Positions 6,498 to 15,496 of a stretch of DNA of 32,000 bases are shown here, piece by piece (positions within the stretch are counted from its first letter, which is position 1; every line of letters begins with the position of its first letter). The notes below the pieces were generated by a model. The model was given only the letters and a program-made list of their open reading frames with translations, ran no database searches and was not told the DNA's origin. The DNA comes from an archaeon (GTDB lineage Archaea > Asgardarchaeota > Thorarchaeia > Thorarchaeales > Thorarchaeaceae): positions 87,470-119,469 of the forward strand of contig JAJRZD010000091.1 of NCBI GenBank assembly GCA_024275415.1, given 5' to 3'. Made by a program: the position numbers and the translations under genes.

Positions 6498-7106
6498 ATG
6501 TCACCAAGCAAGTTCAGACTCAGGCGGGTCTTCCGTATTCCTGTCCTCAAAGCAGCCGCTCCTTTCATCAAATATGGCGTGCATCCTAATACGATTACCT
6601 ATCTTTCACTCCTCATTGCTTTTGCTGGTTTCCTCATCTTGGGCATAACACAGAACCAATTGGTATATGGTGTATTCGTCTTTCTTGTAGGGTTCTTTGA
6701 TGGGGTTGATGGTGCTGTCGCTCGCGGGTCTGGCAAGGCATCTACAAAAGGGGCATTCACCGACTCGTTCATCGATAAGGTTTCTGAGGCAGTACTCCTT
6801 TTTTCAATTCCCATCTCCTTCCCGACTGGAGAAATCTTTGGGCTCTCACTAGATGCATGGGCGTATCTATGTTTCACCGGATGGTTGTTGACAAGCTACT
6901 CACGAGCACGAGCTGAATCCATAGGGCTCTCTGACTTAGATGTTGGACTGGGTGCACGCTCCGAGAGACTGTTTATCCTCAGCATTCTCTCTATCCTCTC
7001 TCTCGTTGAAGTCGGTCTTGTTGTGGTGACGGCCATCGGCATAGGCACTGCTGTATATCGCTTCATCTACTATCAAAGACTGATACCCGATGTCACCTCT
7101 AAATGA
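6498..7106 (+). CDS. pgsA: CDP-alcohol phosphatidyltransferase, archaetidylinositol-phosphate synthase-like
   Basis: Signature FDGVDGAVARGSGKASTKGAFTDSFID, plus GVHPNTIT, SYSRARAE, GLGARSER and several TM segments. Confidence 0.88.
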   Translation: MSPSKFRLRRVFRIPVLKAAAPFIKYGVHPNTITYLSLLIAFAGFLILGITQNQLVYGVFVFLVGFFDGVDGAVARGSGKASTKGAFTDSFIDKVSEAVLLFSIPISFPTGEIFGLSLDAWAYLCFTGWLLTSYSRARAESIGLSDLDVGLGARSERLFILSILSILSLVEVGLVVVTAIGIGTAVYRFIYYQRLIPDVTSK

Positions 7107-7189
7107 ATTTCCCTAATACCAATGCACCATTATACTTAAGTGCAAAACCAATCAGGCCGCATCAATTCATCCAATGGAGCAATCTAGCC

Positions 7190-7609
7190 ATGGCGATATT
7201 CAGGGCTGACCACTATCTTATTGCAGAATTTGAGAACGTTGATGACGTGAAAGGCACTGGCGAGAAGATTCTTGAGGCATTAAATGAGGTAAGCGAGTTG
7301 AAAGACCTTGCCATCGTTTCAAAACGTCTTGAGGGAAAACAGTGGGTAGAGATTCTAGGGCGCATCGACGTACCAGAAGGCTCGAAGGCATTCTGGGCCA
7401 TGGTGAAGAAGGAGGTCACTGATCGTGAGCCTTACAACCTCTTCGTTCGACTAGATCGGAACGCAGAGGGCACTGATATAGAGGATGCACGAGCCGCCGT
7501 GAAGAAATGGGCTGAAGACACTATTGTTCCGAGGATTCAGGATAAAACAAAGGTGAAAACGATCAAAGTCTTACAAGCCATCGAGCTATATATGCCAGAC
7601 CTCAAATGA
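7190..7609 (+). CDS. Hypothetical soluble protein, about 139 aa
   Basis: Protein-like composition; ATG 7190 preceded by GGAG. No motif recognised. Confidence 0.65.
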   Translation: MAIFRADHYLIAEFENVDDVKGTGEKILEALNEVSELKDLAIVSKRLEGKQWVEILGRIDVPEGSKAFWAMVKKEVTDREPYNLFVRLDRNAEGTDIEDARAAVKKWAEDTIVPRIQDKTKVKTIKVLQAIELYMPDLK

Positions 7610-7622
7610 ACCATCAACACCA

Positions 7623-8636
7623 TTACTCAGACTCTATTGCAACAAAGAAAAGCTTGTTTCCTACCGCCTGAACTATCTCCTTGTTGCCATCGCCCGACAG
7701 GTCGCCATATGCGACCAACGAGTCAGCGCTTTTGCTTGCTGTCTTGATAGATGCATCTTCGAAGAACTCTCGCCCTTCAACGCTCAGCATTGAGAGCTTT
7801 GAGTTGGCCAGACTGACAAGAACCTGACCCTGTGACCTGGCCCCATCAATCAGCATCTCGCCGACCTTCATTGACGAGATGCTCCCGGGGGCTCGGATCC
7901 TTGCGCGAGTGCTGACTGACTTCTGTTCCACCTCGAACAGGGTGATTGTCTTCTCACTGCTGGCTATCACTACATCATCCGATCTTCTACCTGTCACACG
8001 TCCTGTTGCGACCAAGTTGACCTCCCCACTTACCTTCGCATTGGCGATTTCATGCAGGCGGTCGTCAGCATATTGATAGATATATAGGGTTTCGGAGTCA
8101 TCGCCAAAGACAAACCTCGTGTAGGATGTTCCCTCACTCCTCAGAGGTTTCATTGAGAAGACAGGTCGCTTAACGACCTTGTGTGCAAGCTTGTCGAGGA
8201 AAGTATCATACCATCCATAGCACCTGAGAGCATTGTCATTGGTTGCTACGACAACTTCCTCTTTCCCATCATTGAGAACATTTGCCACAACCAACGAGAT
8301 TGGAAGGTTTCCTAACATCGCATTGGACTTGACCTCGAGCGATTTCTTGCCGATGCTTACCACTCTCAGGGTATTATCAAGCCCTCCTACGACAAAATCA
8401 GGTGTACCATTTCCAGTGACATCTCCAATCCCAAATGACGAGATAGGGACAAGGTCTGTCATCCTGAACAGTTCCTTGACGACATTGTTGCCACCGACAT
8501 AATCGTAGACTCTCAGGCTCCCACTGACCGTAGCAAGCACTATGTTGTCCTTGCCATCTCCTGTCACATCCATCACCTCAAGGTTCGTGACCATTTCCTT
8601 GAGCGAATGGCTTGTTATCAGGTTCATCGATGGCAT
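7623..8636 (-). CDS. FG-GAP/VCBS-type repeat beta-propeller without signal peptide
   Basis: About seven repeats of roughly 45 aa: DVTGDGKDNIV, GDVTGNGTPDFVV, NVLNDGKEEVVV, GRVTGRRSDDVV, GDLSGDGNKEIV. No hydrophobic N-terminus. Confidence 0.8.
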   Translation of the reverse strand: MPSMNLITSHSLKEMVTNLEVMDVTGDGKDNIVLATVSGSLRVYDYVGGNNVVKELFRMTDLVPISSFGIGDVTGNGTPDFVVGGLDNTLRVVSIGKKSLEVKSNAMLGNLPISLVVANVLNDGKEEVVVATNDNALRCYGWYDTFLDKLAHKVVKRPVFSMKPLRSEGTSYTRFVFGDDSETLYIYQYADDRLHEIANAKVSGEVNLVATGRVTGRRSDDVVIASSEKTITLFEVEQKSVSTRARIRAPGSISSMKVGEMLIDGARSQGQVLVSLANSKLSMLSVEGREFFEDASIKTASKSADSLVAYGDLSGDGNKEIVQAVGNKLFFVAIESE

Positions 8637-8862
8637 TTCAGAAAGACCCTCACATCGAGCATGAAAGGTTTGTGATGGTTCGTTAATTGAATAGGGGATT
8701 TAAGATTTGCCGGTCTGGAATGCCTTCAAAAAAAGAAAGATACGTTCATAGGAACGAGTTCGTGATCTGGCCCTATACTATTTCTGCTCCTATGGTGTTT
8801 ATGACTGGCTGCACAAATAGTTTCGTCCAATTCCTCAAGTTACTCCGAACTACGTTTATGCC

Positions 8863-10113
8863 TCATGGCGATTCAGGCATTAGTAGCCATTTCCATAGTG
8901 GAATATATCTTATTGAACTCCCGTTTTTCTTGTTTAATCCTTCATAATCCCATGTTATTATCTGCAAATCATTACAATCAAGTTCCTGAGAAGCTCTAAT
9001 GAGCGAACGTTCTTCTCTATTACGTGTCTTCTGGTCACTTATATCATAACTCACCTGTATGAGTTGTTCAAAGCCCCTTTGCCCTCGAACTAGAAAATCA
9101 ACTTCGTGTCCAGATTGCGATTGCCAGTAGAAAATCTCTCCACCATTTAGCAAGACCTGTTTATAGAGATTGATGGCAACAATTGATTCAACGCGACGTG
9201 TGATTGATTGCGATAATGGTGAGTATGGCTGAAATAGTCCAACATCGGTAGGATACACCTTTTTTGGCATCTGGGTGATTCCTCTGGGTGATTTTGAAAA
9301 CCGTGGAATTGTGAAGACCAGGAATGCTTCCTCAAAGTAGCCAAGCCACTCTGAAAGAGACCTCTTGCTCTTTCTTACTCCGATGCTCTTGAAGAATTTC
9401 TCTGCCTTCGATAACGAAAGTGCATTACCAAGATTTCTAATGATGAGGTTTCTGAATATTCGTGCTCCTTCTATATCACGTATTCCAAAACGCTCCACAA
9501 CGTCTCTAAAGAATATCGTGTCGAGATAGATACTCAAGAGTTCCATCTTTTCTGAAGACTGATTGACACGAGGAAATCCTCCCCACTCAAGATATCTATT
9601 TAGAAGCGCCTTTGCTTTGTTCCTGCGCCCTCCTTCATAATCAAAAAATTCTTTGAAGCTGAGAGGAAATACGATGCGCGTTATGCTTCTCCCTCTTAAC
9701 TCGGATGCAATCTCCTGAGCCAATAGCCTAGAACTTGAACCACTCACAAAAATATGAAACTTTCCCATATTATGGAGTCCCCTCAGCCATGATGACCAAT
9801 CATCAATGGACTGCACCTCATCAAGAAAAAGGACTCCTTTGTCAGGAATGAGTTCTTCAAGCAAATCTACGAGTTCTGTATATGTTACATTGCTCAACGG
9901 ATCCTCAAAGTCGATATAGACCATATTCTTTTTTCCAAACCTTTCTGCAAGAGTGTCAGCAATCTGATACATGAAATATGTCTTTCCCGCTCTCCTAGGG
10001 CCAATGATTGTGGTAATCTCTTTGGTGATTGCGAATGGAATCAACCTCTCAATAATCTTGAATTCTGTCTCTCTCCACTCAAATATCTTCTTTCTTAACT
10101 CCTGTTTACCCAT
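8863..10113 (-). CDS. AAA_14 + DUF4143 ATPase (COG1373-like)
   Basis: Walker A GPRRAGKT, Walker B LFLDEVQ, VSGSS, YLEWGGFP and C-terminal nuclease-like EVDFL...IQV. Visibly more AT-rich than its flanks. Confidence 0.88.
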   Translation of the reverse strand: MGKQELRKKIFEWRETEFKIIERLIPFAITKEITTIIGPRRAGKTYFMYQIADTLAERFGKKNMVYIDFEDPLSNVTYTELVDLLEELIPDKGVLFLDEVQSIDDWSSWLRGLHNMGKFHIFVSGSSSRLLAQEIASELRGRSITRIVFPLSFKEFFDYEGGRRNKAKALLNRYLEWGGFPRVNQSSEKMELLSIYLDTIFFRDVVERFGIRDIEGARIFRNLIIRNLGNALSLSKAEKFFKSIGVRKSKRSLSEWLGYFEEAFLVFTIPRFSKSPRGITQMPKKVYPTDVGLFQPYSPLSQSITRRVESIVAINLYKQVLLNGGEIFYWQSQSGHEVDFLVRGQRGFEQLIQVSYDISDQKTRNREERSLIRASQELDCNDLQIITWDYEGLNKKNGSSIRYIPLWKWLLMPESP

Positions 10114-10429
10114 GCCCGTATGGTAAACAAAAACAACATAAAAGTGTTTACAACTTCGCTGAGACCTGAGTGAATATCTCTGTCGCCATTTAATCCATGA
10201 CCATTCAAAACAAGTTCCACGAGTTGAAGCATTTTGTCATTCTTGTGGATTCTAAAGCCATGCTTCAGATAGACTCAGAATAACCTGAGATTTTTTTATG
10301 CTCTCGCAAAGGTTTCAATTACCAGTAATTCCCGATCAGACAGTAATTCATCTGCGATGAATTTCAGGTAATGATTGATGTTATCCATCTTTAAGAGTCA
10401 AAATACCATTACTATTACGTGGCGATATT

Positions 10430-10966
10430 ATGGTTTCTGAGCGAAACGAACCACGCCTCACATCAGAGCAGTGGAATTGTGATTCTCTGGTCTTGAGTAA
10501 AGAGCTCAGGTCGTTCGTCGAAGAGTTTGGTTCTTTCACACCTGATTGGTTTGTGGAGGTAAAATACCATCTTTTGAAAGGTGCAGGTTTCGATCGGACG
10601 ACCCGCGATGAACTGTGTTCTGTTTCCATTTACTCGCACACGTGTGACAAGTGTGACCATTTGTACATGTCAAAGAACTGTCTGTTGTGGTATCACCTTT
10701 TCAAGCTAATCACCTGGAAAACCGTCGGACGTGCCCCTCCTTGCATCAAGGCCGCCTACAGGAACAAGAGCATAAAGACTGTTGCTAACTTCCTGAAGCG
10801 TGCCAACCTTGTTTCTCCTCCCTACTACCTGTCCCGCGGTGTGCCTCTCTGTAGGAATATGCAAGACTGGGACTATTGCTCGCCTGATGAATACTGCAAG
10901 CAGATGAGGACTGGACGATTGCTTGCCTATAATGCGGTACGCGAACAGGTGAAGATCAATCGTTGA
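10430..10966 (+). CDS. Cys-rich protein resembling the primase large subunit (PriL) C-terminal Fe-S domain
   Basis: APPCIK...VANFLK...VPLCRNMQDWDYCSPDEYCKQMR..LLAY follows the PriL-CTD PPC...P-C-x8-C-x5-C...Y pattern. There is an extra N-terminal C-x8-C-x2-C-x8-C group. TATA-like CTTTAAG lies near 10389. Confidence 0.6.
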   Translation: MVSERNEPRLTSEQWNCDSLVLSKELRSFVEEFGSFTPDWFVEVKYHLLKGAGFDRTTRDELCSVSIYSHTCDKCDHLYMSKNCLLWYHLFKLITWKTVGRAPPCIKAAYRNKSIKTVANFLKRANLVSPPYYLSRGVPLCRNMQDWDYCSPDEYCKQMRTGRLLAYNAVREQVKINR

Positions 10967-11019
10967 TGGTATGACATCTTATATGTGGGGAAGCCTTTCT
11001 CTTGTCTGGTGACTAGTGG

Positions 11020-12528
11020 TTGTTAGCTGAACCTGATGTGGAAATCACGAATCTTATCCGTCTCACAGGCTTTCGTGAGCAATTCATTAGTGATGCAAGA
11101 ACCGAAGGGAGTGATGATTGGGAGGATATCTGCAGCATTGTGCGGGAACATCAACGAATTCTAGCGCTCGGTGAGAAGCACACACGGCAAAAGGCAATCC
11201 AAGATCCCGTTCATGGTGCGATACTTCTTGAGCCTTGGGAACTCGACATAATCTCTGCTTGGGAAATGCTTAGGCTTCGTTACATCAGACAGTTGGGCCC
11301 TGCTCATATTGTATATCCTGGGGCAACACATACTAGGTTTGAGCACTGCATCGGGACCAATTTCCTAGCCCAAAAATGCATCCGTGTCGTGAACTACTGT
11401 GAGGATCTTGAGAACCCGCAGTTTGTGCCACTGTCGCAACTCCTTGATGCATATCATGAACGGGTGTTCCGTGCTGCTGCCCTCCTTCATGATGTTGGGC
11501 ATCCCCCTACTTCGCATACCATTGAGTTCGCATTGGAGAATTGGGCGGGTCTCTCCCATACTGATCTAGGCATGTTCCTCATCTTGCACAGTGACATCGC
11601 AGACATTCTGGAACAGAATGACATCTCCCCCTCTTCTATCGTGGATGTCCTCAAGAGACGGTCTGACGACCCTATCATGCAGCTCCTTTCAGAGTTCCTT
11701 GACAGTCCGCTGGACATCGATAAGACAGACTACCTGATTCGTGACGCACATTTCAGTGGTGTCGAGCTTGGCATCTTCCCTGCAGAGAGGGTGCTGCTTA
11801 CTAATCGAGTCGTCAGGGATTCCGAAGGACAATATCATCGCGCTTTCATGCTAAAAGCCCTCCACTCCCTTGAAGCCCTCATCCTTAGTAGGGCCTGGAT
11901 GTTCTCCGATCTGTATTTGCACCATGCTGTTAGAGTAGCAGAAGCCATGACTTCCAAGGCGACCTATTTACGTCTGAAAGAGGATGCATTCTCAAAGAAC
12001 GAATGCATAGCGTTCTTCACCCGGATGACGGATGGTGATCTCTTCAGATGGCTGGAGCGTTCGGAAGTCCCTTTTGTCCGGGAATATGCGGCACGGATCC
12101 GCTACCGGCGTCTCTTCAAGGTCATCACAGCGAAACCACTTTCCTCGTTCACCGAAGATGCCCGCTACCGGCTTCTACGCTTCGTGGATGACGTTGGAGC
12201 CCTTATCGAGGCAGAGCTGGATCTCCTGGAAGAGCCCGGTCAAGTCTTAATCGATGTCGTCAACCCCGTCTTGGGAGAACATTTCTTGAGTCAGATACCA
12301 ATTCTCATCGGTGGCAGTAATGGCTTTGATCTGGTTCCGCTGAACGAAACTCCTGAAGGGAAACCTTTGATGGAAACGTTAGTGCAACAACAACGAACTA
12401 TCCCTGCGGTGCGAGTGTATTCGGACTTGAAACATGCAGACGTGGTACGAAAGAGATTCGACAAGATGTTCCATGCACAACACATCAAGGCTCACCGTGA
12501 TGATGACCCCGAGTTCATCGAGTACTAG
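11020..12528 (+). CDS. HD-domain phosphohydrolase, SAMHD1/COG1078-type dNTP triphosphohydrolase family
   Basis: DPVHG, RLRYIRQLG, YPGATHTRFEH, LLHDVGHPPTSH, DIDKTDYLIRD and LYLHH; about 55 aa of N-terminal extension; TTG start after GGTGA. Confidence 0.9.
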   Translation: MLAEPDVEITNLIRLTGFREQFISDARTEGSDDWEDICSIVREHQRILALGEKHTRQKAIQDPVHGAILLEPWELDIISAWEMLRLRYIRQLGPAHIVYPGATHTRFEHCIGTNFLAQKCIRVVNYCEDLENPQFVPLSQLLDAYHERVFRAAALLHDVGHPPTSHTIEFALENWAGLSHTDLGMFLILHSDIADILEQNDISPSSIVDVLKRRSDDPIMQLLSEFLDSPLDIDKTDYLIRDAHFSGVELGIFPAERVLLTNRVVRDSEGQYHRAFMLKALHSLEALILSRAWMFSDLYLHHAVRVAEAMTSKATYLRLKEDAFSKNECIAFFTRMTDGDLFRWLERSEVPFVREYAARIRYRRLFKVITAKPLSSFTEDARYRLLRFVDDVGALIEAELDLLEEPGQVLIDVVNPVLGEHFLSQIPILIGGSNGFDLVPLNETPEGKPLMETLVQQQRTIPAVRVYSDLKHADVVRKRFDKMFHAQHIKAHRDDDPEFIEY

Positions 12529-13208
12529 ACGAGGTGCACGACCAAGTCCAGCACCTTGCGAAACCCTATCTCGATATAAATCACACCAAAGAGTGCCTCG
12601 ACGAGTGTACCCTTGATGTGTTCCATCTCTGACTTTGTGGGTGTCGGAGGATCGAAATGAATCCGGTTCTCGTAAAGCCCCCACTCGTCACATTTCTTTG
12701 ATAGGTGTTCGTTACTCACTAATCCCGAGCGCCTTTCTGTGAGATATCCCACATCAGATGCACGTGGTTTCCATATATGGTGAAGGATAGCCATGTCTAT
12801 TGCAGCATCGCCCAGCAGTGCCAGCATTTTCGCTGTTTCACTCAATGAGATCATGTCAGGGAAATACTTGCATTCTTGAAGGATGGTTTCTTGGTCACAA
12901 TAGTGTGTTTCCAGTTCGAGAAACAGATTCTTTGTGCTTGGCTGGAACAACAGGACCGTGAACAGTCCTTTCTCGTTAAGGGCGAAGTCAAACAACTTTT
13001 CAAGCTTGGGTGCTAACACCTCTTCGGCGTAGACTACCCGTCGGATAATGTAGTTGAGCTCTTTTAGCCAGCGCTCCATCTTCCTGCGGGTCCGTGCATT
13101 TCTCTGCGGAATCTTTTTCAGGTCTTGTTCGACAAGATCCTTTATCTTTACCAGATTCTCTTTCAGATAGAGTCTATGCCAGTCCAGCACTGAGTCACCA
13201 AGCGTCAT
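12525..13208 (-). CDS. RNase III-family protein lacking a dsRBD (Mini-III-like catalytic pattern)
   Basis: LEKLFDFALNEKGLFTVLLFQPS resembles the RNase III N-helix; LALLGDAA, LVSNEHL and GTLVEALFGVIYIE follow. Strong SD GGGAGG. Confidence 0.8.
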   Translation of the reverse strand: MTLGDSVLDWHRLYLKENLVKIKDLVEQDLKKIPQRNARTRRKMERWLKELNYIIRRVVYAEEVLAPKLEKLFDFALNEKGLFTVLLFQPSTKNLFLELETHYCDQETILQECKYFPDMISLSETAKMLALLGDAAIDMAILHHIWKPRASDVGYLTERRSGLVSNEHLSKKCDEWGLYENRIHFDPPTPTKSEMEHIKGTLVEALFGVIYIEIGFRKVLDLVVHLV

Positions 13209-14025
13209 TTACATCCTCCCTTGGATAGTATTGGATAACTGTCGCTCGTTCATCCTCATAGTTGTCCACATGGATTGCTGTGAGCGAATACTCCCCTGCA
13301 AGCCTGACCATCGCAAGGGTTGTGAGTGGTGTACCTATCGAGAGGTCGAGAATGACGTTATGAGTCGGGATTACCTTAATCACCTCGTCACGCATGAACT
13401 CATATACCGCTTTGAGGTTCCCTTTCTGAATATCTTCGTGTGATGTTGTTATCTCTATTGGGATGTCAAACCATTCTGTTTCGATGTCCATTTTTCCACG
13501 CGAGTCCCCCGTCATGAACCTGTCCAGACTTCGAAGAGTCTGACGTTTCCATATCCGTTCCTCTGTGAACAGAAGGAGTCTGCGTGGTTTGAACCGTTTA
13601 CTTCTCCGTAACCAGATAGCGAAGGGCCTCTGGTCGTCAGGTTGTCTGATCGATGCCACATATGCGATGGGACGGGCAACCTCCATCAATCCCATCTCCC
13701 TGAGAGCTTTCCTTACAGGATGATACGCTTTTGTACACAGTTCAAAGACGCGCTCACGGGACTCCCTCCTGCTCTTGATAATCCCCATCTTCTCAAGATG
13801 GGATGTGTTATGATAGAGCTTTGGGTCAGTGACCACGACTTTTTTCTCTCTCGCAGTTCTTTTTCCTTTCTGCTCGATGAGCGCAGCTGCCATGTCTTTC
13901 CTGATGCTCTCACGGAGTTCTGTCCCTGTCTTAGGACCTCCTTCGAGCTGATCAAGGATGACCCTCCGTGCACGGACGCTCTCGATTTCACGTCTTATTA
14001 TCTCGTCCGCAGTCTGTCCTAACAT
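13195..14025 (-). CDS. Winged-HTH (N-terminal) plus CARF-like Rossmann domain (C-terminal) transcriptional regulator
   Basis: Residues 18-100 are PadR/ArsR-like (ILDQLEGGPKTGTEL...LYHNTSHLEKMGII). Residues 119-256 have CARF topology: IAYVAS, RRLLLFTE, EWFDIP, NVILDLSIGTPLTTLAMVRLA, AIHV. Overlaps the downstream gene by 14 nt. Confidence 0.65.
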   Translation of the reverse strand: MLGQTADEIIRREIESVRARRVILDQLEGGPKTGTELRESIRKDMAAALIEQKGKRTAREKKVVVTDPKLYHNTSHLEKMGIIKSRRESRERVFELCTKAYHPVRKALREMGLMEVARPIAYVASIRQPDDQRPFAIWLRRSKRFKPRRLLLFTEERIWKRQTLRSLDRFMTGDSRGKMDIETEWFDIPIEITTSHEDIQKGNLKAVYEFMRDEVIKVIPTHNVILDLSIGTPLTTLAMVRLAGEYSLTAIHVDNYEDERATVIQYYPREDVNDAW

Positions 14026-14053
14026 CTGCTATCACACTCCTTTCTCAAATATG

Positions 14054-14230
14054 ACATATATATGTTTTGTATTCATCTATTATATCAAAAGACATCGAAG
14101 TTTTCTGAGCTCATCCCTCATTGTCTAAAACTCATGAAAGTGCTGAAAACAGCCACAAATTACGTTTTCGACACATACAGACAAAACCACGCTTGTCCAA
14201 TAACATATACATATATATCATATTCATCTA
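14054..14230. repeat. Two copies of a bipartite motif ACATATATAT...TATTCATCTA (14054-14079 and 14209-14230)
   Basis: Both 10-mers recur exactly, with 6-nt and 2-nt spacers. Copy 1 contains the perfect palindrome ACATATATATGT (14054-14065). Confidence 0.7.
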
Positions 14231-14250
14231 ATAAAAAGAGCTAAATCCGG

Positions 14251-14264
14251 TAAAGGCTTAAATA
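14251..14264 (+). promoter_or_regulatory. Putative BRE/TATA (TAAAGG-CTTAAATA) for actin
   Basis: Canonical arrangement about 95 nt upstream of the actin ATG; SD GAGGA at 14348-14352. Confidence 0.55.
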
Positions 14265-14359
14265 GAAAATCGCCCCTCATATGTTAGCACAGAGTTTGGG
14301 AAGTCTTCTTTCCAGTGCAAACTCTCTGTCTTTTCAAATGAGAAAACGAGGACCGAAAA

Positions 14360-15496
14360 ATGGAAGATGAATATCTTGCTGCTAAGCCCATTGTCATTGA
14401 CAACGGCACTGGTCTTAGCAAAAATGGCTACGCGGGTGAAGACCAACCCCGCAGCGTCTGGCCGACTTTGATAGGATACCCACGATACGAGTCGATCATG
14501 ACGGACGTTGACCACTATACACGCGACTATTACATCGGCGAAGAAGCGATTAACCTTCGCGGTGTCCTACGACTTGTCTACCCCATCACACATGGTGTGG
14601 TCGAGGACTGGGATGCCATCGAGAAGATCTGGAGCTACACCTTCTACAACGACCTGAAGGTGGATCCAAGTGAGAACCCCGTGTTACTTACAGAGGCACC
14701 CTTCAACCCACGAGAGAACCGTGAACGCATGGCAAGCGTGATGTTCGACAACTTCGGTGTTCCTGCAGTCTATGTCGCAACTCAGGCTGTGCTCTCGCTG
14801 TATGCATCAGGTAGGACAACAGGTCTGGTCATTGACTCTGGTGATGGTGTCACACACATCGTCCCTGTGTACGAAGGATTCTCCATCAACCACGCGATTA
14901 GGAGGATCGATCTTGCAGGACGTGATGTCACCGAGTACTTGCGCAGACTACTCAGGCAAAGAGGCTACTCCTTCGTGAGCGGTGCTGAGAAAGAAATCGT
15001 CCGTGATGTCAAGGAGAAGCTCTGCTACGTTGCTCTTGACCCAGAACGAGAACGGACTGTCGCTGACAAGGCAGGTGTCGATAAGCCCTACATGCTCCCC
15101 GACGGCGAGGTCATCACTGTGGGCGCAGAACGCTTCCAGGCACCAGAACTGTTCTTCAACCCGAGCGCGATTGGTCTTGATACATTGCCTCTCGATGAAC
15201 ACATTGTCGAGTCCATCAAGGCTTGTGACGTTGACCTGCGACGTGACCTCTACGCCAACATCGTACTCTCAGGCGGCTCTACTATGTTCCCCGGACTCAA
15301 GGAACGACTCCACAAGGAGATTACCGAACTTGTCCCCGAGAACATCGAGGTTCGCATCATCGCTCCACCCGAGAGACAATACTCCGTCTGGATTGGCGGG
15401 AGCATACTTGCCTCGCTCAAAACTTTCCAGAAGATGTGGGTTTCCCGCAAGGAATTCGAGGAACAGGGCCCCGAAGTCATCCACCGTTGCATCTAG
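14360..15496 (+). CDS. Actin (Asgard actin of the eukaryote-like, Lokiactin type)
   Basis: [83 protein letters not shown] and C-terminal GPEVIHRCI. Strong C-ending codon bias. Confidence 0.98.

What the first reader, a model, noticed from the sequence alone, without database searches (positions are those of the whole stretch)
10430..14025. Candidate nucleotide-sensing or antiviral module: PriL-like Fe-S protein, SAMHD1-like dNTPase, Mini-RNase III-like protein and HTH-CARF regulator
Seen: four packed genes form two convergent pairs. HD and RNase III overlap at a shared CTAG, HTH-CARF overlaps the RNase III gene by 14 nt, and an AAA_14/DUF4143 ATPase sits just upstream. Known: SAMHD1 and bacterial dGTPases restrict viruses by depleting dNTPs, CARF domains sense cyclic oligonucleotides, and RNase III enzymes cut dsRNA. 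Inference: a ligand-gated regulator controls a dsRNA nuclease beside a dNTP-depleting enzyme, giving a CRISPR-independent immunity or nucleotide-stress circuit with echoes of eukaryotic innate immunity. I do not know this combination as a described system. Caveat: COG1078 HD proteins are common, often housekeeping, archaeal genes.
Basis: partly seen in the sequence, partly recalled or inferred. Interest (0 to 1): 0.8.

Follow-up and report, generated by a model that had tools for sequence, protein, structure and literature searches.

The report
Thorarchaeal core genes beside actin
The four genes are real and mostly correctly named, but they are inherited core genes of Thorarchaeota rather than an antiviral module, and the only pairing that lasts across Asgard archaea is the CARF-sensor regulator sitting next to the actin gene.

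Summary
Observation confirmed: coordinates, strands, the CTAG stop overlap, the 14-nt overlap and the upstream AAA_14/DUF4143 gene are all as described. Three domain calls hold: an HD/SAMHD1-family protein, an RNase III domain without a dsRBD, and a wHTH plus CARF fold. The PriL-like call gets moderate support from a profile-profile match and a shape match to the PriL C-terminal Fe-S region.

The immunity-module reading does not hold. The block from CDP-alcohol transferase through beta-propeller, Cys protein, HD, RNase III and HTH-CARF to actin is single-copy and syntenic in essentially every Thorarchaeota genome searched. It lies among housekeeping genes. Outside Thorarchaeota each gene has its own distribution and its own neighbours. 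HD has been deleted at least three times while the other genes stayed. The AAA_14 gene is an insertion not seen at this site in any other fetched locus. Cas10 was found in only 11 of 61 Thorarchaeota genomes.

One linkage survives deep divergence. The wHTH-CARF gene lies next to actin in nine Asgard families, usually divergent and once in tandem. Its more distant relatives sit in cas loci. The best reading is a CRISPR-derived sensor regulator recruited to the actin locus.

The scan reached the same reading earlier on other genomes (e1-5396726, e1-4517464).

The parts
6498..7106 (+). CDP-alcohol phosphatidyltransferase, the far end of the conserved syntenic block
   Evidence: Pfam CDP-OH_P_transf 2e-13. 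Syntenic in Thorarchaeota. Also within a few kb of HTH-CARF in Hermod-, Jord/Frey- and Baldr-type loci.
7103..7609 (+). Conserved 168-aa ORF of unknown family in the syntenic block
   Evidence: No Pfam hit. Orthologues hold the same position in Thorarchaeota loci and lie near HTH-CARF in L078/L079.
7623..8636 (-). FG-GAP beta-propeller protein in the syntenic block
   Evidence: Pfam FG-GAP_3 1e-11, with weak BBS7/BBS2 propeller hits. Syntenic in Thorarchaeota. Lies next to HTH-CARF in the same-order genome, L064.
8863..10113 (-). AAA_14/DUF4143 ATPase. Not part of the conserved block: an insertion seen only in this genome
   Evidence: Pfam AAA_14 1e-31 and DUF4143 4e-16. PADLOC candidate PDC-S01 3e-94. 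In every other fetched locus that spans this site the beta-propeller and the Cys protein are direct neighbours. Single copy in the own genome.
10430..10966 (+). 178-aa Cys-rich protein with eight invariant Cys. Its C-terminal half resembles the 4Fe-4S part of the primase large subunit C-terminal domain
   Evidence: Alignment A3. hhalign vs 13 Asgard PriL C-terminal regions: probability 71%, E 3.7e-5, residues 94-173, with C105, C141, C150 and C156 aligned to the PriL cysteines. Controls score 17 or less. Atlas shape search top row is PF04104, 80 aa aligned, rmsd 3.3. A true PriL gene lies elsewhere in the genome.
11020..12528 (+). HD phosphohydrolase of the SAMHD1/EF1143 family; a Thorarchaeota-specific 502-aa paralogue
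   Evidence: Pfam HD and HD_assoc_2. PDB 2hek 1e-32, EF1143 4e-29, SAMHD1 1e-19, with the H...HD...D motifs aligned. Orthologues of 56-75% identity occur only in Thorarchaeota, alongside one or two paralogues of about 435 aa per genome. Deleted or degraded in G021, G017, G203 and L090.
12525..13208 (-). RNase III-domain protein without a dsRBD, with an N-terminal extension of about 75-120 aa. Probably co-transcribed downstream of HTH-CARF
   Evidence: Pfam Ribonuclease_3 2e-14. Invariant G133-D134, N166, E204 and T201; E167 nearly invariant. PDB profile hits to RNase III, Drosha and Dicer domains at about 30 bits per domain; Mini-III only E 0.08. Found in 58 of 59 Thorarchaeota genomes and patchily elsewhere.
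13195..14025 (-). wHTH (N-terminal) plus CARF (C-terminal) protein, the actin-linked regulator candidate
   Evidence: PADLOC CARF_m5 6e-20. AF2 pLDDT 85.7. Foldseek Csm6 1e-5, Cam1, Card1, Can2, Sso2081, plus TubR, ArsR and PadR wHTH proteins. Next to actin across Asgard families.
14026..14359 (.). Divergent intergenic region shared by HTH-CARF and actin
   Evidence: 300-590 nt in all lineages. In Thorarchaeota a conserved TATTTAAG box lies about 95 nt upstream of the actin ATG, with a conserved GAGGACCGA leader. Candidate operator repeats are not statistically established.
14360..15496 (+). Asgard actin
   Evidence: Pfam Actin 1.5e-133. Orthologues of 70-99% identity lie next to HTH-CARF in other genomes.

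Best explanation
The locus is a vertically inherited core segment of a Thorarchaeota chromosome, not a mobile or defence module.

Shown. The order CDP-alcohol transferase, orf168, FG-GAP propeller, PriL-CTD-like Fe-S protein, HD paralogue, RNase III-domain protein, wHTH-CARF, actin is kept, single-copy, across at least 16 genera of the family. The AAA_14 ATPase is an insertion seen only in this genome. Outside the family the four genes have different distributions and different neighbours. The one association that survives class-level divergence is wHTH-CARF next to actin.

Inferred. The wHTH-CARF protein is a transcription factor that evolved from CRISPR-associated CARF regulators. It binds the 300-600 bp region it shares with actin. 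In response to a small ligand that is not, in general, a Cas10-made cyclic oligoadenylate, it tunes actin and its own transcription unit. In Thorarchaeota that unit has also captured the RNase III-domain gene. The RNase III-domain protein is most likely a housekeeping dsRNA-processing nuclease. The HD paralogue is most likely a dispensable (d)NTP triphosphohydrolase. The Cys protein is a small Fe-S protein derived from the PriL C-terminal domain, with an unknown role.
For: Synteny and single copy in Thorarchaeota. RNase III was found in 58/59, HTH-CARF in 57/59 and the Cys protein in 56/59 genomes. HD orthologues were found in all but a few. Gene order is identical in the 20 loci. It is the same in the Thorarchaeota loci, apart from those that have lost HD.

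Housekeeping surroundings: Sua5, nucleotidyl transferases, HypD, and the uL22/uS3 ribosomal operon about 10 kb away.

Independence outside Thorarchaeota: RNase III; Cys protein; HD. hmmsearch finds no HTH-CARF or Cys protein near remote RNase III genes.

HD loss with neighbours retained: L029/L100, L090, L024/L118, and G203.

Actin linkage. It holds in 34 of 34 evaluable Thorarchaeota loci and 15 of 18 evaluable non-Thorarchaeota loci, labelled Hermod-, Jord/Frey- and Baldr-archaeota. It also holds in GTDB families f2, f3, f8, f12, f13, f15, f19 and f21. Flanking genes differ between these lineages. One lineage has the pair in tandem (L154).

Origin. The family is small, 121 clusters among 1.84 billion representatives. 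The Asgard clade is split with 100/98 support from a group that holds cas-locus members P0026 and P0027.

Fold.

Independence from Cas10.

Established knowledge, from my own recall and not checked in a paper here: conserved divergently transcribed pairs that include a transcription factor usually mark regulator-target pairs.
Against: No experiment or expression data bears on regulation. No RNA runs were listed.

No statistically supported shared operator was found across lineages.

One Jordarchaeales-type family (f7) and f28 have the regulator without actin beside it. Families f5, f9, f14 and f24 have actin without it, so the regulator is not required for actin expression.

In Thorarchaeota the basic residue of the CARF [DN]x[ST]xxx[RK] motif is lost, so ligand sensing there is uncertain.

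The tight packing in Thorarchaeota (overlapping genes, three family-specific genes inserted at one site) could still reflect a lineage-specific functional unit.
Confidence: 0.6

Rival explanations
1. One reading: a CRISPR-independent antiviral or abortive-infection module. A ligand-gated HTH-CARF switches on a dsRNA nuclease beside a dNTP-depleting HD enzyme, with the AAA_14 ATPase and the Fe-S protein as accessories.
For: The CARF fold, the RNase III domain and the SAMHD1-family HD domain all belong to families that include defence proteins. The genes overlap. AAA_14/DUF4143 matches PADLOC candidate PDC-S01. More distant relatives of the HTH-CARF sit in cas loci.
Against: The genes are near-universal, single-copy and syntenic across a whole family, within a housekeeping region. 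None of the four genes is linked to another outside that family. HD was lost repeatedly without loss of the others. AAA_14 is an insertion seen only in this genome. The anti-phage dGTPase models score 15-20 bits against cut-offs of about 400. No PADLOC system model covers the RNase III or Cys proteins.
Confidence: 0.07
2. A Thorarchaeota-specific, non-defence functional unit. The three genes added in the Thorarchaeota ancestor (Fe-S PriL-CTD-like protein, HD dNTPase paralogue, RNase III) work with HTH-CARF in nucleotide, replication or RNA homeostasis. HTH-CARF controls the RNase III gene in its own operon.
For: All three genes were inserted at the same site, between HTH-CARF and the propeller gene. 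Compare L064, L078 and the Baldr-type loci with the Thorarchaeota loci. HTH-CARF and RNase III overlap or lie within about 60 nt of each other on one strand throughout the family. The Cys protein and HD are co-directional, 53 nt apart. Thorarchaeota HTH-CARF carries a lineage-specific insertion and an altered CARF motif that coincide with the arrival of RNase III. A PriL-CTD-like domain and a dNTPase both relate to nucleotide or replication chemistry.
Against: Unrelated flanking genes (lipid transferase, propeller, actin) are conserved in order just as strictly, so synteny alone does not single out these four. HD is dispensable. No co-occurrence of any pair outside the family.
Confidence: 0.18
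3. Pure historical synteny. None of the adjacencies, including HTH-CARF with actin, reflects a functional relationship. The regulator acts elsewhere, or only on itself.
For: No operator motif is shared beyond chance across lineages. Some lineages have the regulator away from actin, or actin without it.
Against: Adjacency is kept in nine families, with HTH-CARF identity down to 22-28%, while the surrounding genes are reshuffled. It persists even after re-orientation to tandem. That is hard to explain without selection.
Confidence: 0.12

Closest known systems
Csa3 (Csa3a/Csa3b), the CRISPR-associated CARF-wHTH transcription factors of Sulfolobales
   Same: A CARF sensor domain fused to a winged helix in a small protein. 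Weak PADLOC Csa3 hits (E 0.01). More distant relatives of the window protein lie in cas loci.
   Different: Domain order is reversed: wHTH first, CARF second. There is no cas linkage, and Cas10 was not found in most host genomes searched. The protein is linked to actin instead. The Thorarchaeota members lack the basic residue of the CARF motif.
PADLOC profile 'CARF_m5--CARF', a minor CARF clade among CRISPR-ancillary proteins
   Same: Near full-length match, E 5.8e-20, residues 17-255.
   Different: The Asgard clade is a separate branch (100/98 support) from the cas-linked relatives. I could not read the paper that I recall (unchecked) as defining this clade, so its published definition was not checked.
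Bacterial Mini-III (MrnC/YazC, PDB 4oun and 6tnn)
   Same: A single RNase III catalytic domain without a dsRBD. The aspartate and glutamate equivalent to D44 and E110 of Aquifex aeolicus RNase III are kept, while the other two acidic positions are replaced (A130, T201). The residue equivalences are my reading from recalled canonical RNase III sequences, not a structural alignment.
   Different: Sequence similarity to Mini-III is marginal (E 0.08, 15.8 bits). Canonical RNase III, Drosha and Dicer domains score about 30 bits each. It has a family-specific N-terminal extension and an invariant RIHFDP insert. It is restricted to Asgard archaea in the search made.
SAMHD1, EF1143 and other COG1078 HD triphosphohydrolases
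   Same: HD plus HD_assoc_2 architecture with the H...HD...D metal-site motifs aligned.
   Different: A family-specific 502-aa paralogue that exists alongside the widespread form of about 435 aa. It falls far below the curated dGTPase and anti-phage dGTPase cut-offs. Activity and allosteric regulation are untested.
Primase large subunit C-terminal 4Fe-4S domain (PriL-CTD/p58C) and its stand-alone derivative PriX of Sulfolobales
   Same: Profile-profile match over about 80 residues with the four cluster cysteines aligned, and a shape match. Like PriX, it is a small separate protein while the true PriL is encoded elsewhere. The PriX comparison is from my own knowledge.
   Different: It is much shorter than PriL-CTD, with compressed Cys spacing. 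It has four additional invariant Cys in the N-terminal half. It shows no linkage to primase genes.

Membership tests
CARF superfamily | Rossmann-like CARF fold | tested here: met
   AF2 model pLDDT 85.7. Foldseek probability 1.0 to Csm6, Cam1, Card1, Can2, Cdn1, Sso2081 and Cad1 CARF domains, E 1e-5 to 1e-3. PADLOC CARF_m5 6e-20.
CARF superfamily | Ligand-site motif [DN]x[ST]xxx[RK] after strand 4 | tested here: not met
   The window protein and other Thorarchaeota members read D-L-S-x-G-x-P or similar, without the basic residue. Non-Thorarchaeota members of the clade keep it (DVTDGTR, DLTCGSR).
CARF superfamily (type III CRISPR signalling) | Co-occurrence with a cyclic-oligoadenylate synthase (Cas10) | tested here: not met
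   The Cas10 palm domain PF22335 was found in 11 of 61 Thorarchaeota genomes and in 2 of 5 complete HTH-CARF-bearing genomes. The own genome does carry Cas10-like genes on other contigs.
CARF superfamily | Binding of a cyclic oligonucleotide or other nucleotide ligand | not testable with these tools
   Needs biochemistry.
Csa3 family | N-terminal CARF followed by C-terminal wHTH, encoded in a cas locus | tested here: not met
   The order is wHTH then CARF. None of the window ORFs scanned with Pfam is a cas gene.
RNase III family | RNase III catalytic domain with the signature GD and EA(L/I)xG motifs | tested here: met
   Pfam PF00636 2e-14, above its cut-off. G133, D134, E204 and G208 are invariant.
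RNase III family (canonical class 1) | Four acidic metal ligands plus a C-terminal dsRBD | tested here: not met
   The positions equivalent to E40 and D107 of Aquifex aeolicus RNase III are A130 and T201 (equivalence is my reading). No dsRBD family hit. TIGR02191 scores 36.6 bits against a cut-off of 166.
Mini-III (class 4 RNase III) | Specific sequence relationship to MrnC | tested here: inconclusive
   4oun E 0.081 and 6tnn E 0.33 with the family profile. Architecture and catalytic pattern are alike, but homology is no closer than to other RNase III domains.
SAMHD1/COG1078 HD triphosphohydrolases | HD metal-site motifs and the HD-associated C-terminal region | tested here: met
   Pfam HD and HD_assoc_2, both above cut-off. 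The alignment to 2hek shows the H, HD and D motifs conserved.
Anti-phage dGTPase (NF041026, PADLOC dGTPase) | Score above the curated family cut-off | tested here: not met
   15.5 bits against a cut-off of 400. PADLOC dGTPase E 9e-5, over about 70 residues only.
PriL C-terminal Fe-S domain | Homology to PF04104, with the four cluster cysteines | tested here: inconclusive
   For: hhalign probability 71%, E 3.7e-5, with the four Cys aligned, and clean controls; Atlas shape search top row is PF04104. Against: no Pfam or PDB sequence hit. PriL did not appear in the Foldseek or VIA lists, which mostly covered residues 11-85.
Anti-virus defence system or island | Patchy, horizontally mobile distribution; co-transfer of components; location among other defence genes | tested here: not met
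   Near-universal, syntenic and single-copy within the family, with components unlinked elsewhere and housekeeping neighbours.

The most novel reading that the evidence does not exclude
A CARF-domain transcription factor, taken over from CRISPR second-messenger signalling, acts as a ligand-controlled switch of actin gene expression in many Asgard archaea. In Thorarchaeota it has been extended into an operon with an RNase III-type nuclease. This would be a prokaryotic case of signal-regulated cytoskeleton expression in the closest archaeal relatives of eukaryotes.
Probability: 0.3. Interest if true: 0.8.

Novelty: new variant of a known kind. Interest (0 to 1): 0.5.

Why it matters
For the finding as posed, the result is deflationary. 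Domains with a defence flavour (CARF, RNase III, SAMHD1-like HD, AAA_14) packed together are not enough to call an immune system. Distribution and synteny show an inherited core block.

What remains interesting is narrower. A small clade of wHTH-CARF proteins, whose more distant relatives are encoded in cas loci, is kept beside the eukaryote-like actin gene across several Asgard classes. That gives a concrete, testable candidate for how Asgard archaea regulate their actin. It is also an example of a CRISPR-signalling sensor domain reused for cell biology.

Three side products deserve biochemical tests:
- an Asgard-restricted RNase III-domain family without a dsRBD;
- a minimised, stand-alone PriL-CTD-like Fe-S protein;
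- a Thorarchaeota-specific SAMHD1-family paralogue.

Tried and rejected
- Homodimer prediction for HTH-CARF: no verdict. Not used as evidence either way.
- Public RNA runs for 12525-15496: no RNA holder was listed.
- Actin 5'UTR hairpin as a possible RNase III substrate. Single-sequence folds show hairpins, but RNAalifold on 16 Thorarchaeota leaders gave no consensus pairs. Dropped.
- Shared operator across lineages. GATATCATC occurs in three of five lineage representatives. In an omnibus k-mer test, 246 of 500 Markov shuffles reach the same level of sharing. Lineage-specific inverted or tandem repeats upstream of the actin TATA box remain leads only.
- ATATATGT-like elements in Thorarchaeota intergenic regions: probably TATA boxes or AT-rich background.
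- Cys protein. Pfam on all 18 members, a PDB profile search and the Atlas feature search gave nothing. Foldseek against PDB gave nothing at E below 3. VIA gave only weak winged-helix-like matches for residues 15-73, Z 5 or less. The afdb_clusters library was unavailable.
- Apparent special similarity of the RNase III domain to Drosha (E 9e-14). This is the sum of two domains at about 30 and 21 bits, no better per domain than bacterial RNase III (32 bits).
- Alignment of the AAA_14 insertion borders with the sibling genome: no clear target duplication seen.
- The paper I recall (unchecked) as the CARF classification, tried by DOI and PMC id, is not held. Full-text searches found no paper linking Asgard actin to a CARF or HTH regulator. 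This covers the held library only.

Full report
OBSERVATION.
The window holds the four ORFs exactly as described: 10430-10966(+), 11020-12528(+), 12525-13208(-) and 13195-14025(-). These are two co-directional pairs that converge. HD and the RNase III gene share CTAG at 12525-12528. HTH-CARF overlaps the RNase III gene by 14 nt. An AAA_14/DUF4143 ATPase lies at 8863-10113(-). Directly beyond HTH-CARF, across a 334-nt divergent spacer, lies an actin gene (Pfam Actin 1.5e-133). NCBI record titles of orthologous loci name the lineage as Thorarchaeota.

WHAT EACH GENE IS.
HD. It has Pfam HD and HD_assoc_2. The nearest solved structures are Aquifex 2hek (1e-32), the dNTPase EF1143 (4e-29) and SAMHD1 (about 1e-19), with the H, HD and D motifs aligned. 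Curated dGTPase and anti-phage dGTPase models are far below cut-off.

RNase III. The Pfam Ribonuclease_3 match covers residues 129-213 and there is no dsRBD. In 21 orthologues G133-D134, N166, E204 and T201 are invariant and E167 is nearly so. An FQPSTxN box and an RIHFDP insert are family-specific. The family profile hits canonical RNase III, Drosha and Dicer domains at about 30 bits per domain, but Mini-III only at E 0.08. It therefore resembles Mini-III in architecture and catalytic pattern, not by specific descent.

HTH-CARF. It has no Pfam hit, but PADLOC CARF_m5 scores 6e-20. An AF2 model built from 37 sequences has pLDDT 85.7. Its C-terminal domain matches the CARF domains of Csm6, Cam1, Card1, Can2, Cdn1 and Sso2081. 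Its N-terminal domain matches wHTH proteins.

Cys protein. Eight cysteines are invariant. Sequence libraries and PDB fold searches gave nothing useful. The ESM Atlas shape search, however, put the archaeal/eukaryotic primase large-subunit C-terminal domain first: 80 residues aligned, query 97-178, rmsd 3.3. I then aligned 13 Asgard PriL C-terminal regions and ran hhalign against the family. The result was probability 71%, E 3.7e-5, query 94-173, with PPC105, C141, C150 and C156 on the four PriL cysteines. A reversed alignment, 20 column-shuffled alignments and unrelated alignments all scored 17 or less. The genome has a normal PriL elsewhere. The 'PriL-like Fe-S' call is therefore moderately supported.

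IS IT A MODULE?
A search of 40 relatives with the RNase III protein found one copy in 23 of 24 genomes of the same family. In 20 loci fetched around it, the order is the same: CDP-alcohol transferase, orf168, FG-GAP propeller, Cys protein, HD, RNase III, HTH-CARF, actin. The order recurs in 37 named Thorarchaeota loci.

Profile searches over 251 genomes of the phylum gave these counts for Thorarchaeota:
- RNase III 58/59;
- HTH-CARF 57/59;
- Cys protein 56/59;
- the 502-aa HD orthologue in all but a few.

The AAA_14 gene is missing from this position in every other fetched locus that spans it; there the propeller and the Cys gene are direct neighbours. The wider window is housekeeping: Sua5, nucleotidyl transferases, HypD and the uL22/uS3 ribosomal operon. 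This pattern is vertical inheritance of core genes. Because unrelated flanking genes are conserved in order just as strictly, synteny within the family cannot by itself show that the four genes work together.

OUTSIDE THE FAMILY THE GENES PART COMPANY.
Full-length RNase III orthologues (31-35% identity) occur patchily in families f5, f9, f14, f22 and f24. There they sit beside thiolase/MFS, a Vps4-like AAA plus a Schlafen-domain giant, DUF2400, Cdc6 or FeoB. No HTH-CARF or Cys protein is nearby.

HTH-CARF homologues occur in f2, f3, f6, f7, f8, f12, f13, f15, f19, f21 and f28. These are largely the families without the RNase III orthologue.

Cys-protein homologues occur in f7, f8 and f19 at unlinked sites, next to FAD-dependent oxidoreductases, a helicase or coiled-coil proteins.

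The HD gene is a Thorarchaeota-specific paralogue. The best match outside is 34% identical, and each Thorarchaeota genome also has the common form of about 435 aa. HD was cleanly deleted in L029/L100, in L090 and in G203, and was degraded in L024/L118, while the Cys gene, RNase III and HTH-CARF stayed. The Cas10 palm domain was found in 11 of 61 Thorarchaeota genomes.

THE LINKAGE THAT DOES SURVIVE.
In loci around non-Thorarchaeota HTH-CARF homologues (22-30% identity), actin is the divergent neighbour in families f2, f3, f8, f12, f13, f15, f19 and f21. The same holds in 15 of 18 evaluable named loci labelled Hermod-, Jord/Frey- and Baldr-archaeota. All 34 evaluable Thorarchaeota loci show it.

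The genes on the other side differ between lineages. In Baldr-type loci the lipid transferase is adjacent, elsewhere it is 3-5 kb away, and in Thorarchaeota five genes intervene. One further lineage has the two genes adjacent in tandem, with Roadblock/LC7 and histone genes nearby (L154).

There are exceptions. Family f7 and f28 have the regulator without actin beside it. Families f5, f9, f14 and f24 have no such gene upstream of actin.

The family is small: 121 clusters at E 1e-3 or better among 1.84 billion representatives. In a maximum-likelihood tree the Asgard clade is separated with 100/98 support from a group that includes proteins encoded next to Cas1/Cas4/RAMP and Cas6/Cas4 genes.

Non-Thorarchaeota members keep the CARF [DN]x[ST]xxx[RK] motif. 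Thorarchaeota members have lost the basic residue and gained an insertion of about 30 aa.

MECHANISM (INFERRED).
A dimeric wHTH-CARF transcription factor binds in the shared promoter region. It adjusts actin and its own operon in response to a ligand that cannot generally be a Cas10 product.

I looked for an operator. Each lineage has an inverted or tandem repeat 20-50 bp upstream of the presumed actin TATA box. Cross-lineage sharing of words is not beyond chance. I also found no conserved leader hairpin. The dimer prediction gave no verdict, and no RNA runs were listed; both are recorded only as attempts.

VERDICT.
The domain calls are largely right. The immunity-module interpretation is not supported. 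The scan's earlier follow-ups on other genomes (e1-4517464, e1-5396726, seen after my own analysis) reached the same reading. What I add here:
- the independent phyletic patterns of all four genes;
- the repeated loss of HD;
- the Cas10 census;
- the split between cas-linked and actin-linked clades;
- the tandem-orientation variant;
- the profile evidence for a PriL-CTD-like Fe-S protein.

Noticed in passing
window 8637-10429: The AAA_14/DUF4143 ATPase (PADLOC candidate PDC-S01, E 3e-94) is an insertion of about 1.6 kb between the propeller and Cys genes, seen only in this genome. It is single-copy in the genome. No clear target duplication was seen.
   Followed up: partly
window 7623-8636: An FG-GAP beta-propeller with weak BBS7/BBS2/ITFG2-type propeller hits is part of the conserved block. 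In the same-order genome (L064) it lies directly beside HTH-CARF.
   Followed up: no
L154:345-6134: In one metagenome-assembled lineage HTH-CARF and actin are adjacent in tandem rather than divergent. A Roadblock/LC7 protein, an AAA ATPase and a histone gene flank them.
   Followed up: no
L132, L127 (about 187-217), L135, L137 (about 80-110), L121, L124 (about 148-175) of the actin/HTH-CARF intergenic regions: Lineage-specific repeats lie upstream of the presumed actin TATA box. Jord/Frey has a tandem TATCATC-GA-TATCATC. Baldr has an 11-bp inverted repeat around CGATATCA. Hermod has CTCTATCA-N10-TGATAGAG. These are candidate operators, not statistically established.
   Followed up: partly
window 14260-14359 and Thorarchaeota orthologous leaders: The actin leader has a conserved TAGCACAGAGTT box about 25-30 nt downstream of the TATTTAAG box, and an invariant GAGGACCGA just before the ATG. 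This implies an actin 5'UTR of about 65-70 nt in Thorarchaeota.
   Followed up: partly
L158, L160, L161 (Cys-protein homologues outside Thorarchaeota): In three of the four non-Thorarchaeota loci whose neighbours were scanned, the Cys-rich PriL-CTD-like protein lies next to an FAD-dependent oxidoreductase. This is a possible redox partner.
   Followed up: no
G000 contigs C83:21757-23166 and C37:22486-22920: The own genome carries two Cas10/Cmr2-like genes, so type III CRISPR signalling may exist in this particular organism. Most relatives searched did not show it.
   Followed up: no
L050:8722-12870: In one non-Thorarchaeota Asgard genome the RNase III orthologue is followed by a 1383-aa protein with a Schlafen AlbA_2 domain and preceded by a Vps4-like MIT-AAA ATPase.
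   Followed up: no
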